21,626 bases of DNA from Chthoniobacteraceae bacterium (lineage in GTDB: Bacteria > Verrucomicrobiota > Verrucomicrobiia > Chthoniobacterales > Chthoniobacteraceae): the NCBI GenBank assembly GCA_031409655.1, contig JANNXQ010000129.1, positions 1 to 21,626 on the forward strand, written 5' to 3'. The notes beneath the pieces were generated by a model that was given only the letters and a program-made list of their open reading frames with translations, ran no database searches and was not told the DNA's origin. The translations under genes were made by a program, and so were the position numbers. Numbering within the stretch: the first letter of the stretch is position 1; every line of letters starts with the position of its first letter. Below are positions 1 to 4,459 of this stretch, piece after piece.

Positions 1-74
1 AGGAACTTCTCCCGCCGGGTGATCTTCTTTTTGCGGCTATACTCGGTCTGCGCGAAACTCCGTTGGGCTTCCAT
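1..74 (-). CDS. IS5-family transposase, N-terminal 24 codons (partial, runs off the window)
   Basis: Hand translation from ATG at 74 gives MEAQRSFAQTEYSRKKKITRREKF(L), matching the IS5-subgroup N-terminal pattern 'Q.SFA..EY..K.K.TR.E.FL'. Not in the ORF track. Confidence 0.85.
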   Translation of the reverse strand, partial: MEAQRSFAQTEYSRKKKITRREKF

Positions 75-122
75 CCCTCTACGACCCCGCACCTCCTCAT
101 GACCTTTGCCCACGCGTCTGAT

Positions 123-137
123 TAAATCAGCGTTTCC
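123..137 (-). repeat. Putative IS terminal inverted repeat (left end), flanked by candidate target duplication CTAA at 138..141
   Basis: + strand TAAATCAGCGTTTCC|CTAA, about 50-60 bp upstream of the transposase ATG. The partner IR cannot be seen. Confidence 0.7.
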
Positions 138-327: not shown

Positions 328-1662
328 ATGTTTTATCTCAAAAATTTCAAAAACTTCGCCGAAGCGGAACTCGACGATGAGCGGCCCGTCACGCTACTCA
401 TCGGCCCCAACGGCGCGGGCAAGAGCAACTTGATTGAAGCGGTCGAACTCCTTTCATTCCTCGCCGCGGGCCATCCGCTTCACGAGGTGACTGACCTCGG
501 GCGTGGTGGCGGTCTTGAAGTCCGCGGCGGCCTTGATGCCTGTGCGAGCTTTGGTCACGACACCTTCACTCTCGGTCATCGCTCGCGAATCTTGCCCCTC
601 GATGGAGGTTATGAGGTCGATTACCAAGTCACAGTGCGTGTGGGAAATGAGCGGCGCGTCGTCGGCGAGTCGCTGCGCATAGTCGGGCGGCACATTCCGA
701 TTTTTGAGATTCTACCGGCGATTCATAGGGCTGCCTCGGCGGACAATGAGGTGCGATATGACAACCGTGCCCGCGGAAAGAACAAGCCCGTTGCATCGGT
801 GGCTGCCGACAGATCCGCACTGTCGCAATACGCCCGGTTTGCCTCAAAAGATACGAAGCTCCCGCACACCCTGGCAGCCATCAATGCGGTCCTTAAGGCC
901 CTAGAGGCACCCGCTGTGTTCGATCCCGTCCCTAGCCGCATGCGTGAGTATCAGCAGAACACACAAAGCCGTCTTGCGCGGGATGGATTCAACATCTCGC
1001 CGGCCCTTTATCAGCTTCATACCTTCGCCGTCACGCCACCGCGACGTGGCACGTCGGAGAAACCGGAAGTCGTCGGCATGGGATGGGGAGACTCGGTCGC
1101 TCGCATCCTCAAACGCATCGCTCAGCTCCCCGATGAACCGTTTAAGAGCTTTGAATTCTTCACCACCAAGACTGGAGACGTTCTGTTTGGATTCAATACG
1201 CTGCACAGTGACAAAACCATCACCGCCCGCGTCCTTTCCGATGGCACTTTGCGCGCATTGGGTATTCTCACCGCCTTGGAAACTTCACCAAGGGGCTCGC
1301 AACTGGTGCTCGAGGAATTCGACAACGGCGTTCACCCCAGCCGCACGCACATTTTGAGCGAAGCGCTCTTTGAATGTGCCGAGTTACGCAAGCTCCATGT
1401 CCTAGCGACTACGCATAATCCCGCCACCCTGAATGCGCTCACCGCCGAGCAAATCGACGGCGTGCTCCTCGTCGTGCCCGACGCGGCGAGAAAATTCGCC
1501 CGGCTCCTGCCCATCAAGGAATTGCCGGGCTACATCGAATTCGTCGAGCAAGGCCGCCTCGGCGACCTCATCACCCGGCGAGTCTATGAGCGGCATCTCG
1601 GCACTGATTATGAAGGTGAACGGAAGAAGGACCTCGTCGAGTGGCTTGAGGCGTTACCGTGA
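328..1662 (+). CDS. ABC-superfamily (AAA_21/AAA_15-like) soluble ATPase
   Basis: N-terminal LKNFKNF strand, Walker A GPNGAGKSN, signature LSDGT, Walker B/D-loop LVLEEFDNGVHP and H-loop TTHNP. No TM segments. Start placed at ATG 328; the frame is open from 271, so the start is uncertain. Confidence 0.9.
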   Translation: MFYLKNFKNFAEAELDDERPVTLLIGPNGAGKSNLIEAVELLSFLAAGHPLHEVTDLGRGGGLEVRGGLDACASFGHDTFTLGHRSRILPLDGGYEVDYQVTVRVGNERRVVGESLRIVGRHIPIFEILPAIHRAASADNEVRYDNRARGKNKPVASVAADRSALSQYARFASKDTKLPHTLAAINAVLKALEAPAVFDPVPSRMREYQQNTQSRLARDGFNISPALYQLHTFAVTPPRRGTSEKPEVVGMGWGDSVARILKRIAQLPDEPFKSFEFFTTKTGDVLFGFNTLHSDKTITARVLSDGTLRALGILTALETSPRGSQLVLEEFDNGVHPSRTHILSEALFECAELRKLHVLATTHNPATLNALTAEQIDGVLLVVPDAARKFARLLPIKELPGYIEFVEQGRLGDLITRRVYERHLGTDYEGERKKDLVEWLEALP

Positions 1663-2156
1663 ACGTTGTCTTCTACGTCTTTGATACCAGCTATCTGATT
1701 GAGCTGGCCGACTGCGGACGCGATGCCGATCCGAAGGCTAGCCCGCACGTTCGCAAATTAGCCAAGCAAGCCGCAGCCGCAGGTGCGCGGTTCGTGGTGC
1801 CGCTGCCGTGCCTCTTCGAACTCGGCGACCACATCGCAGACGTGGGACATACAGTTCGCAGGCAGGAACTCGCGGATTGGCTCGCAAAAACCGTGACAGC
1901 CAGCCTCGAAACGGAAAGGCCTTGGATCATCACGCCGACCGGCGACCCGAAAGCCATCCTGCCAGAACTGCTCCAGATTTTTCGTGGCCAAGGCGTGAAA
2001 AAGCAGATCGGATTGGTGGACCTCTTCGCAGCTTCCGAGGCGCATCGGCTCAAAACCGATTACCGCGACCGCAAAGCCAAGGTGCATATTTGGACCAATG
2101 ACCGGGCATTGAAAGGACAGGAACCGGATCACGAGCCGAACCCATTCCACTGGTAA
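1659..2156 (+). CDS. PIN-domain (VapC-like) ribonuclease
   Basis: Acidic quartet in PIN spacing: VFD9TS, LFE54LG, GLVD121L, IWTND148RAL. The GTG start overlaps the ATPase stop (GTGA). Confidence 0.8.
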   Translation: MNVVFYVFDTSYLIELADCGRDADPKASPHVRKLAKQAAAAGARFVVPLPCLFELGDHIADVGHTVRRQELADWLAKTVTASLETERPWIITPTGDPKAILPELLQIFRGQGVKKQIGLVDLFAASEAHRLKTDYRDRKAKVHIWTNDRALKGQEPDHEPNPFHW

Positions 2157-2163
2157 GGAACGG

Positions 2164-3306
2164 GTGCGCCCAGACGACTGGAATTTCAGCCAAATGAATC
2201 CCGACGACGAGAATTGGTTTCGACGGAAAATCGAAGAGGCCGTTTTCGCGGCGGTTCAGGCGTTGCTGGACGCTGACAAGGCAGCGGAACGCGCTGACGC
2301 GGTGCGTCGGAAGCATCCTGGGATGCCGAAGGATGCGTTGGCTCAAATTCTGATCGATCGAGCTACGCGAAAGACAATGGTGGAAGGTGCCTTGAACGGT
2401 GCCGCAATTACGGCCGTAGAAATCCCGCTTGCAGCACCGGTTCCCGAGCCGGGACACAAGGCGCTCGCCATTTCAGGCATTAGCGCTCTGATCGTAGGCG
2501 ATATCGGCTTCACGACCAAAGTTCAGATGCAGCTGCTCCTCGAGATCGGCGAACTCTATGAGTGCCCATTTTCGAAAGACGATGAGGACGATGTATGGTT
2601 GATCTTCAAGGCGGCACTTGGCGCGAAAGGGACTGAACGGATAGGCGGCTACGGGAGGTTCGTGTTCGATCAGACAGCCAGGAAGCAGTTTCGACGCTTA
2701 CTCCGAGCGCATGGAATACGGCGGACAGCTCAGCGAATCGTTCAGAAAGTTGCAGGGAAGGAAGTAGCAAAACGCATCTCTGAAAGGGCCCTTCTGCGAT
2801 TAATCTGGGCGGCCAACATCGTCATAGGGGCTTGGTTCAATCGGCGCGCAACAAAGGCAGTCGGGAAATGGGCGAAAGTGAAAGCGAAGGTTCGCGCCTC
2901 AATGTTCAAGGAAATAGATCACATCAAAGCGAACGATCGGGCCTCCGCTGTGCTTGTGTTGCCTCTCGTCTTCTGGGTTGGGACTGCCGACGACACGCTG
3001 GTCGACAACACAATTACGCTCTATGCGCAGGCGACACGTCGTCTGAGTTTGACACCTGAGGAACTGGACGAGGTGGAAAAAATCGTGGATCAGGAGGATC
3101 TCGCGGAAGCCATTGAGTTAAGGCTCCGCAACGTCCCTGACTTAGTGCGACGAGAATTTCTCGCTATCGCCGTCACATCCACCGCGGCTGCAAGATTGGA
3201 GATCGTCGAGGCGCATCATCAAGCTTTGATAACTATCAGCCAAGCGTTGGGACAGACTTATGCGCGGAAAGACCTTCAGGAAAAGATCAGCTATCTGACG
3301 CGATAG
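2164..3306 (+). CDS. EcsC-like helical protein with TerB-like C-terminal domain
   Basis: The N-terminal ~240 aa has EcsC-like features (small-residue helices EGALNGAAITA, 'QMQLLLEIGELY', 'NIVIGAWFNRRATKAVGKWAK'). The C-terminal ~120 aa has a two-repeat helical pattern (VGTADDTL...LSLTPEEL; ...ALITISQALG) reminiscent of TerB. AAGGAA RBS before GTG, 7 bp after the PIN stop. Confidence 0.6.
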   Translation: MRPDDWNFSQMNPDDENWFRRKIEEAVFAAVQALLDADKAAERADAVRRKHPGMPKDALAQILIDRATRKTMVEGALNGAAITAVEIPLAAPVPEPGHKALAISGISALIVGDIGFTTKVQMQLLLEIGELYECPFSKDDEDDVWLIFKAALGAKGTERIGGYGRFVFDQTARKQFRRLLRAHGIRRTAQRIVQKVAGKEVAKRISERALLRLIWAANIVIGAWFNRRATKAVGKWAKVKAKVRASMFKEIDHIKANDRASAVLVLPLVFWVGTADDTLVDNTITLYAQATRRLSLTPEELDEVEKIVDQEDLAEAIELRLRNVPDLVRREFLAIAVTSTAAARLEIVEAHHQALITISQALGQTYARKDLQEKISYLTR

Positions 3307-3346: not shown

Positions 3347-4118
3347 TCAGTTCCTGAATCTCGCTCGCGGAAGGCTGGCTCTCATTCCCGCCGGGTGATC
3401 CGCACGATCCGCCCGCCCGGTGAGTTGCTCCTCGATCCGAGTCACCCGCGCCGAGCGGCAGGGCGACGAATTGCCGGATGAGCCCTGCGCCGACGGAGAA
3501 TCTATCGAGTCACGGCTGGCCGGGGACGGCGACGTAATCCTGCGGCTCGCAGTCCAGCTCCGCGGTCCACGCTTCACCGGAAACGGCTTTGATCTTTCCC
3601 GCCGCGATCGTCACCGCGAACGGATACGGAGCCGGAAAGCTGATCCAGAGCGCCTCACTCTGATCCATGGGCGAAACGACCCCGCCGCGCTGGAGCCAGG
3701 AGGCCGGAGCCGTCGCGGGAAAGTCGTCCAAGGAACGGAGTGGGAACTCGCCGAGGCCGGCGGGAAGTGGGTAAGTCCGGCCGTCGTCGGGAATCCGCAG
3801 GGTGCGCTGAAAGGCGATGGTCAGGGCCGGGAACGATGCGTCGTGCAATCCGGCGGCGCGCAGAGCCGCGGTGCGCAGGGCGGCTTCGATCTCGTCCGCC
3901 GTCGAGGTCATCACCCGGAGGCAATGCCGGTCCTGCTCCGCCCGGCTGAGTCGGCGAAATCCCCACCGCGATTTGAGTTCGGCGAGCAGGGAGTTGCGCC
4001 CCTCGAGACGCTGGAAATCGGCGAGGATGAGTTCGATCTCCCGCTCGAAGTGGGCGCGGAGTTTCGGGGCGATTTCCAGGAAGGTGAACGAAAGGCCGTC
4101 GTTTTCGAGTGTGATCAT
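3347..4118 (-). pseudogene. Disrupted conserved hypothetical protein ('FQRTLRIPDDG.YPLP.GLG.FPL' family)
   Basis: Starts MITLENDGLSFTF at 4118. In-frame TGA at 3512..3510 in VPGQP*LD, where I recall PWLDG in homologues. The frame continues LDRFSVGAGLIRQFVALPLGAGDS, then one extra base near 3437 shifts into IEEQLTG, after which similarity is lost. Confidence 0.75.
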
Positions 4119-4147: not shown

Positions 4148-4459
4148 TCACCAGTCGCCATCGCGGATCTGGCGGGAGATGGCGGAGACGCATTTGGCGG
4201 AGAGGCCCCGCAGCGCGCGCAGGAGTTCCGCGACCACGGTGGGGCGTTCGCGGATGATTTCGAGCAGATCGCTCGAGACCTTCCCGGCCAACGCCAGTAG
4301 CGTATCGGGACTTTCCCCAAGCCCCTCGGCCAGACGGCGGATGGTCTGTTCGCCCTGGAGCGGCTCCTCCCGGTGCTCGATCTTGCTCAGATAGGAAGGC
4401 TCTATGCCCACGCGCCAGGCGACCTCACGCAGAAAAAAGGCGGGATCGCTCTCCGACAT
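4148..4459 (-). CDS. XRE-family helix-turn-helix transcriptional regulator (possibly N-terminally truncated)
   Basis: LREVAWRVGIEPSYLSKIE is a classic XRE HTH, followed by TIRRLAEGLGESPDTLLALAGKV. It lies 29 bp upstream of the pseudogene on the same strand. Confidence 0.8.
   Translation of the reverse strand: MSESDPAFFLREVAWRVGIEPSYLSKIEHREEPLQGEQTIRRLAEGLGESPDTLLALAGKVSSDLLEIIRERPTVVAELLRALRGLSAKCVSAISRQIRDGDW

What the first reader, a model, noticed from the sequence alone, without database searches (positions are those of the whole stretch)
328..3306. Candidate undescribed defence/conflict operon: ABC-ATPase + PIN RNase + EcsC/TerB-like protein
Seen: three co-directional genes coupled by a GTGA overlap (1659..1662) and a 7-bp gap with an RBS. 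They are more AT-rich than the rest of the window (for example 31/60 G+C at 2761..2820) and are bracketed by an IS5 end and a decaying pseudogene pair. Established: soluble ABC-ATPase plus nuclease pairs underlie Septu (PtuA/PtuB HNH), PARIS (AriA/AriB TOPRIM) and AbiL-type systems, and TerB-like domains occur in stress and antiphage loci. Inference: the ATPase is a sensor that restrains or activates a PIN RNase effector, with a third, possibly membrane-associated, component. I know of no named system with this three-part architecture, but cannot exclude one.
Basis: partly seen in the sequence, partly recalled or inferred. Interest (0 to 1): 0.8.

Follow-up and report, generated by a model that had tools for sequence, protein, structure and literature searches.

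The report
Catalogued ATPase–RNase pair plus passenger gene
The first two genes form an already catalogued but untested candidate anti-phage pair, in which an ATPase probably holds an RNA-cutting enzyme in check, while the third gene travels on its own in other bacteria and has joined the pair only in this lineage.

Summary
The three genes are real and intact, but they are not a conserved three-part system. Genes 1–2 match PADLOC PDC-M07A/B full length (E 1.6e-91, 3.9e-51), an untested two-gene candidate. The ABC-ATPase + PIN design is already validated as HEC-03, a different family. The pair is adjacent at 19 of 19 outside loci, none with gene 3, and sits inside type I RM operons at two annotated loci. 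Gene 3 (EcsC + TerB-like, true start 2194, so the gap is 37 bp, not 7) lies next to the pair at only 3 of 26 homologue loci, all ≥92% identical to it. New detail: between strains the ATPase inserts are hypervariable (residues 231–260, 17–23% identity, against 96–99% at the N-terminus). The ATPase C-terminal helix is swapped together with the PIN, and a complex model docks that helix on the PIN (0.78, best control 0.00). Best reading: a PARIS-like ATPase sensor that tethers a VapC-fold RNase, plus an independent passenger gene that may be a solo defence gene. No phage activity is shown.

The parts
1..137 (-). Left end of an IS5-family element (terminal inverted repeat 118-137, transposase start at 74, reading away from the operon); target site CTAA at 138-141; the contig ends inside the element
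328..1662 (+). ABC ATPase, 444 aa, PDC-M07A family. Walker A 26-33, signature LSDGT 303-307, Walker B 325-332, H-loop 361-365. Hypervariable inserts at 76-260; C-terminal helix 426-444 predicted to dock on the PIN
   Evidence: PADLOC E 1.6e-91; Pfam AAA_21 9e-26
1659..2156 (+). PIN-domain RNase, 165 aa, PDC-M07B family, VapC-like fold; D9, E54 and D121 invariant, D148 at least 90% conserved
   Evidence: PADLOC E 3.9e-51; alignment of 53 sequences; model pLDDT 92 and Foldseek hits to PAE2754/VapC at E about 6e-4
2157..2193 (+). 37-bp spacer, variable in length between strains; no terminator-like site on the + strand
2194..3306 (+). 370-aa all-helical protein: EcsC-like N-terminal domain with a moderately hydrophobic Gly/Ala-rich hairpin (about residues 65-108) and a TerB-like C-terminal domain; separately mobile
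   Evidence: Pfam EcsC 1.4e-7; VIA-align Z 9.4 to 2h5n (rmsd 4.0, 117 aligned) and Z 8.9 to 2ou3 (rmsd 3.7, 125 aligned); atlas TerB/EcsC clusters; hydropathy
3510..4118 (-). Pseudogene of unknown family: premature stop at 3510-3512, remnant runs on towards gene 3, 3' part missing; broken at different places in L004 and L014
   Evidence: no Pfam match above cut-off and no NCBIfam match
4148..4459 (-). XRE-type HTH remnant, 5'-altered relative to L004
   Evidence: Pfam HTH_31 2.8e-7

Best explanation
Genes 1-2 are a two-gene PDC-M07 abortive-infection or toxin-antitoxin-like module. The ABC ATPase tethers the PIN RNase through its C-terminal amphipathic helix (modelled). Its variable inserts most likely recognise an invader protein, such as an anti-restriction DNA mimic given the family's place inside type I RM operons (inferred). 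ATP-dependent rearrangement would then free or activate the PIN, which cuts RNA, probably tRNA or rRNA, and halts translation (inferred by analogy with PARIS and VapC). Gene 3 is an independent EcsC-TerB gene that has come to lie behind the pair in one Chthoniobacter-like lineage, is probably co-transcribed, and is kept for its own sake. It most likely acts at the membrane through its hydrophobic hairpin, possibly as a solo defence or stress gene.
For: Shown: full-length PDC-M07A/B matches; only A and B models are seen for M07, and the next accession is M08A. ATPase and PIN adjacent at 19 of 19 outside loci (13 found by the PIN query, 6 by the ATPase query), with gene 3 at 0 of 19 even with a broad 86-sequence profile (2 of the 19 have under 300 bp downstream). 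Pair between hsdS and hsdR in 2 of 6 plasmid loci read. Gene 3 next to the pair at 3 of 26 loci. Whole genomes: 0 of 5 pair-bearing genomes hold gene 3; 0 of 5 gene-3 genomes hold the PIN or ATPase (incomplete MAGs, empty answers without a positive control). Catalytic motifs conserved. Between four strains, ATPase residues 231-260 are 17-23% identical in 5 of 6 pairs, against 96-99% for residues 1-75. In L013 the ATPase tail (58-63%) and PIN residues 1-45 (47-53%) diverge together while gene 3 stays 93-98% identical. Complex model: ipSAE 0.78, best of 3 controls 0.00; this mark was reached by 116 of 157 solved complexes and 2 of 215 mismatched pairs; runs agree in at least 98% of contacts; partner pLDDT at least 88. 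The interface is ATPase 397-444 against PIN 16-18, 32-45, 70-95 and 134-138, the same segments that are swapped together. Tail 401-440 has the highest partial correlation with PIN distance, 0.38, over 28 pairs. HEC-03 (ABC+PIN) needs both genes for defence (bioRxiv 10.1101/2024.01.29.577857).
Against: No experimental activity found for PDC-M07 (0 papers hold the term). The listed interface does not include the PIN acidic residues, so inhibition is not shown and the ATPase could instead be an activator. The model has one ATPase chain, whereas ABC ATPases work as oligomers. Trigger and substrate are pure analogy. Within the lineage the trio is stable: all three genes are intact, gene 3 has dN/dS 0.10-0.17 in 5 of 6 pairs (the sixth pair is nearly identical, with dS 0.004), and the flanks decay. 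A soil-run contig bridges all three genes. A defence role for gene 3 is not established: PADLOC hits lie near 6 of 20 gene-3 loci, against 8 of 20 random control stretches.
Confidence: 0.65

Rival explanations
1. The trio is a functional three-part variant: gene 3 was recruited as a membrane anchor or second sensor for the ATPase-PIN complex in this lineage.
For: Same order and orientation in the window, L004, L013 and L014 and in a soil-run contig. Equal contig lengths suggest about four more cases (indirect). 37-bp spacer without a terminator-like site. Purifying selection on all three genes while the flanks decay. EcsC-like genes form putative operons with the defence sensor jukA (bioRxiv 10.1101/2022.09.17.508391, passage).
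Against: Gene 3 is absent from 19 of 19 other pair loci, including one from the same family with a close ATPase and PIN (L118). The pair is absent from 23 of 26 gene-3 loci. Gene 3 is 98% identical between L013 and L014, whose PINs are 65% and ATPases 78% identical.
Confidence: 0.12
2. The ATPase-PIN pair is a selfish addiction or stress toxin-antitoxin module that stabilises a mobile island and has no anti-phage role; gene 3 is a non-defence membrane or stress protein.
For: VapC-like fold; translational coupling; occurrence on plasmids; no raw enrichment of defence genes around gene 3; PDC-S29-type EcsC models also ring in 4 of 14 ordinary control genomes.
Against: Patchy hypervariability of the ATPase inserts and embedding inside type I RM operons fit invader sensing better. 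The related design HEC-03 is anti-phage.
Confidence: 0.18
3. The linkage is an assembly or binning artefact, or the genes are dead cargo.
For: The genome is a 306-contig assembly with 5.26% contamination, and the contig ends in an IS.
Against: The same linkage appears in three other records and a sequencing-run contig; dN/dS is mostly 0.04-0.23.
Confidence: 0.02

Closest known systems
PADLOC PDC-M07 (phage defence candidate, Payne et al. 2024 preprint)
   Same: Both proteins match the A and B models over their full length, and the genes are adjacent.
   Different: A third, unrelated gene follows. The ATPase scores lower against the models (305 bits) than typical members do (530-700 bits), so it belongs to a subfamily. 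No function has been tested.
HEC-03 (validated ABC ATPase + PIN system)
   Same: Same domain pairing; both genes needed for defence.
   Different: Neither HEC-03 model tested matches anything in this genome, so it is a different family.
PARIS (AriA/AriB) and Septu (PtuA/PtuB)
   Same: ABC ATPase of the AAA_15/21 type coupled to a nuclease. In PARIS the ATPase senses foreign proteins and releases a tRNA-cleaving nuclease (PMC10802454, abstract).
   Different: The effector here is PIN, not TOPRIM or HNH; AriA and PtuA models match only around the ATPase motifs.
PDC-S29 / PDC-S30 and EcsC family; TerB/DjlA-N domain
   Same: 14 of 24 gene-3 family members scanned hit PDC-S29 weakly; TerB-like C-terminal fold.
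   Different: This protein hits no PADLOC model at E <= 1 and is an EcsC+TerB fusion, about 150 aa longer than the PDC-S29 model.
VapBC toxin-antitoxin systems
   Same: VapC-like PIN fold and acidic tetrad; the partner is encoded upstream with overlapping codons.
   Different: The partner is a 444-aa ABC ATPase, not a small DNA-binding VapB.

Membership tests
PDC-M07 | PDC-M07A profile match, full length | tested here: met
   PDLC04392 E 1.6e-91, residues 2-443 against profile 5-427/432
PDC-M07 | PDC-M07B profile match, full length | tested here: met
   PDLC04396 E 3.9e-51, residues 1-163 against 1-163/165
PDC-M07 | A and B genes adjacent | tested here: met
   GTGA overlap at 1659-1662
PDC-M07 | PADLOC system rule file and the preprint's supplementary definition (Tables S3-8) | not testable with these tools
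HEC-03 | ABC ATPase + PIN architecture | tested here: met
HEC-03 | Match to HEC-03 profiles | tested here: not met
   PDLC04147 and PDLC04148 give no match in the genome (the first had no positive control, the second rang in 4 of 14 controls); the PIN hits only PDC-M07B at E <= 1
PARIS | TOPRIM effector AriB | tested here: not met
   Gene 2 has a PIN fold; no AriB hit
Septu / retron PtuAB | HNH effector PtuB | tested here: not met
AbiL | AbiLii partner | tested here: not met
   Weak AbiLi hit on gene 1 (1.4e-21); no AbiLii hit on genes 2-3
PIN/VapC RNase | Fold and four acidic catalytic residues | tested here: met
   D9, E54, D121 invariant and D148 at least 90% conserved in 53 sequences; Foldseek; D-E-D-D signature as described in PMC12065111
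PIN/VapC RNase | RNase activity and substrate | not testable with these tools
   needs an assay
PDC-S29/S30 (EcsC-like singles) | Profile match of gene 3 | tested here: not met
   No hit for this protein; weak hits only for relatives
TerB-like domain | C-terminal helical TerB fold | tested here: met
   The only two chains with Z >= 8 of 48161 are 2h5n (9.4) and 2ou3 (8.9), both on model residues about 250-380 (middling Z for a helical protein); atlas neighbours carry PF05099
   3 of 26 gene-3 loci and 0 of 19 outside pair loci

The most novel reading that the evidence does not exclude
In this lineage the PDC-M07 ATPase-PIN module has recruited an EcsC-TerB membrane-hairpin protein as a working third part (anchor or second sensor), a three-gene immune variant caught as it forms. 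A milder reading, which I put at about 0.35, is that the EcsC-TerB family is itself an undescribed single-gene anti-phage protein: its homologues sit directly beside brxL, a type IIG RM gene, a type II restriction enzyme and a SIR2 gene, and at the end of a prophage.
Probability: 0.12. Interest if true: 0.7.

Novelty: new member of a known kind. Interest (0 to 1): 0.4.

Why it matters
PDC-M07 is listed in PADLOC but I found no paper that tests it. This locus gives a concrete model and natural reagents: strain alleles with near-identical ATPase cores but different inserts (candidate trigger specificity), and different tail/PIN pairs (candidate cognate neutralisation). Allele swaps can test sensing and restraint directly. 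The EcsC-TerB family is a separate, uncatalogued candidate worth one cloning experiment. It is not a new kind of system.

Tried and rejected
Seven-base gap with RBS: rejected. IS5 as carrier of the trio: rejected, the site is empty in L013 and L014. Defence-island enrichment of gene 3: no raw enrichment, 6 of 20 loci against 8 of 20 random 7-kb controls from this genome. After dropping generic domains by eye (kinase, ABC transporter, ThiF, radical SAM, cyclase, RecQ) it is about 5 against 1-2. This is post hoc, the test loci hold less DNA, and the control comes from one genome, so it is only suggestive. Joining contig C76 to the window across the IS: C76 carries the same upstream exonuclease remnant as the relatives but diverges before its end and shows no IS end, so the join is unproven. 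Viral contigs: 78 loci returned, none a full-length close relative of the ATPase; not examined further. Plasmid searches with the PIN and with gene 3: no match. Foldseek of gene 3 against the PDB: no match at E <= 0.001. ATPase against PDB sequences: only weak Walker A matches. No sigma-70-like promoter found. Expression: no RNA holder listed; the contigs laid cannot show transcription. Earlier scan findings: none returned. No complex was modelled with gene 3 (one job only). Of the 8 plasmid hits, 6 were read (H6 and H7 were not).

Full report
Observation. The three ORFs exist on the + strand. Gene 1 runs 328-1662; its first Met is invariant in 82 of 82 aligned homologues. Gene 2 runs 1659-2156 and overlaps gene 1 by GTGA; the overlap is kept in L004 and L014 and, as TTGA, in L013. 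Gene 3 starts at ATG 2194, not GTG 2164: that GTG is out of frame in L013 and deleted in L014, so the spacer is 37 bp. The block is 57.0% GC against 63.4% for the genome; 1.5% of 2140 equal windows are as low. The IS5 end at 1-137 is real and recent: 9 near-identical copies at or near contig ends, and an empty CTAA site in two relatives. The genes downstream are decaying, with different breaks in each strain. Named relatives are Chthoniobacter/Chthoniobacterales.

Genes 1-2. The PADLOC scan gives PDC-M07A (E 1.6e-91) and PDC-M07B (E 3.9e-51) over the full length; gene 3 has no hit. The accession after the last M07B model is M08A, so I infer that M07 has two parts. The Payne preprint (10.1101/2024.01.29.577857; passages, and sections 6 and 10 in full; supplements not seen) describes PDCs as untested candidates found embedded in BREX, DISARM or type I RM. 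It validates HEC-03, an ABC ATPase + PIN pair that needs both genes. Neither HEC-03 model tested matches this genome. A full-text search for 'PDC-M07' returns 0 papers; five further topic searches listed no title describing this trio. The library lacks most subscription papers. The Walker A, signature and Walker B residues are conserved. The PIN keeps D9, E54, D121 and D148 across 53 sequences and folds like VapC.

Is the trio conserved? Gene 3 homologues gave 26 loci (9 genomes, 17 metagenome contigs). The pair is adjacent in 3 of 26 (L004, L013, L014), all 92-94% identical in gene 3 and sharing flanking remnants, so they are one locus in one lineage. Of the other 23, 17 have at least 600 bp upstream and none holds the PIN; three of the 23 duplicate others. 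Conversely, 19 outside loci were read: 5 genomes of the window's phylum, 6 of 8 plasmid hits and 8 genomes of another phylum. All 19 have ATPase and PIN adjacent and none has a gene-3 family member; 2 have under 300 bp downstream. Two plasmid loci place the pair between hsdS and hsdR; L116 looks the same by my reading of its ORFs (not profile-tested). The pair is rare: 2 of 400 other phylum genomes, 3 of 300 order genomes, 0 of 3 genus genomes. A close gene 3 occurs in 1 of 150 family genomes, G752, which is placed in another genus; this hints at transfer, but MAG binning is a caveat. A soil-run contig spans 230-2531 and links all three genes.

Strain comparison. In four loci the ATPase is a mosaic. 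Residues 1-75 are 96-99% identical. Residues 76-230 are 57-72% and residues 231-260 are 17-23% identical in 5 of 6 pairs (window and L004 are nearly the same there). In L013 the tail 426-444 (58-63%) and PIN 1-45 (47-53%) diverge together. Gene 3 is 92-98% identical throughout, with dN/dS 0.10-0.17 in 5 of 6 pairs; the sixth pair (L013-L014) has almost no synonymous change and an uninformative ratio of 2.6. The complex model supports binding but does not show it: score 0.78, best control 0.00; 116 of 157 solved complexes and 2 of 215 mismatches reached the mark; contacts agree in at least 98%; partner pLDDT at least 88. The interface is ATPase 397-444, with W439, L440 and L443 at its centre, on PIN helices 32-45 and 70-95, and does not list the acidic residues. 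My PDB sequence search found no close solved relative of the ATPase, but a pass from likeness to solved structures cannot be excluded.

Mechanism. Shown: families, motifs, folds, obligate pairing, mosaic variation. Modelled: tail-PIN contact. Inferred: the inserts sense an invader protein, ATP turnover releases or activates the PIN, and RNA cleavage arrests the cell, by analogy with PARIS (PMC10802454, abstract and outline only). That VapC enzymes cut tRNA or rRNA is recalled knowledge, apart from the VapC20 title.

Gene 3. It has an EcsC domain and a TerB-like C-terminus. Its hydropathy is borderline (best 19-residue windows 1.59 at residue 90 and 1.65 at 252), so a membrane role is plausible, not shown. 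The family is broad (373 representatives at E <= 0.001), and 14 of 24 members scanned weakly hit PDC-S29. EcsC-like genes are noted in putative operons with jukA (10.1101/2022.09.17.508391, passages). TerB is described as a ligand-binding part of Ter systems (PMC7824862, passages). Direct neighbours include pglZ-brxL (L011), a type IIG RM end (L029), a type II restriction enzyme (L016), SIR2 (L028), DUF4238 (L015) and prophage tail and holin genes (L010); many other loci are housekeeping. The control shows no raw enrichment (6 of 20 against 8 of 20), so a defence role is only a lead.

Verdict. A member of the catalogued, untested PDC-M07 ABC-ATPase/PIN candidate, working most likely like HEC-03 or PARIS, with an independent EcsC-TerB gene appended in one lineage. 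Interest 0.4; a functional three-part variant has a probability of about 0.12.

Noticed in passing
window:6900-8222 (-): dGTP triphosphohydrolase (NCBIfam PRK01286, above cut-off; below the cut-off of the anti-phage dGTPase model), probably housekeeping.
   Followed up: partly
window:6443-6808 (-): Small multidrug resistance (SMR)-like transporter, weak hits below cut-offs.
   Followed up: partly
window:3389-4312: The decayed gene and HTH region draws far more contig depth in soil runs than the trio, suggesting a widespread family with no Pfam or NCBIfam name.
   Followed up: no
window:138-327: IS5 sits 190 bp upstream of the ATPase start, where the native promoter probably lies; it may alter expression. 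A soil-run contig shows a strand-switch joint at 143/230.
   Followed up: no
L033:11488-12611 (G000 C76): Broken DnaQ-like exonuclease gene, 98.6% identical over 138 bp to the sequence upstream of the trio in L004; its link to the window contig is unproven.
   Followed up: partly
L002/L003 (G000 C213:35324-36322, -): A second, distant AAA_21-type ATPase (403-aa open frame) in this genome; partner not examined.
   Followed up: no
L152:2-1558 and L141:1820-3550: Random control stretches of this genome hit DpdF (1e-189) and a type IIG RM model (1.5e-69).
   Followed up: no
PADLOC models PDLC04147/PDLC04148: HEC-03A is the 159-position model and HEC-03B the 458-position model, the reverse of the A = ATPase, B = PIN naming in the preprint.
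   Followed up: no
A3 alignment column of H363: Several close ATPase alleles, including L013 and L014, have Gln in place of the H-loop His.
   Followed up: no
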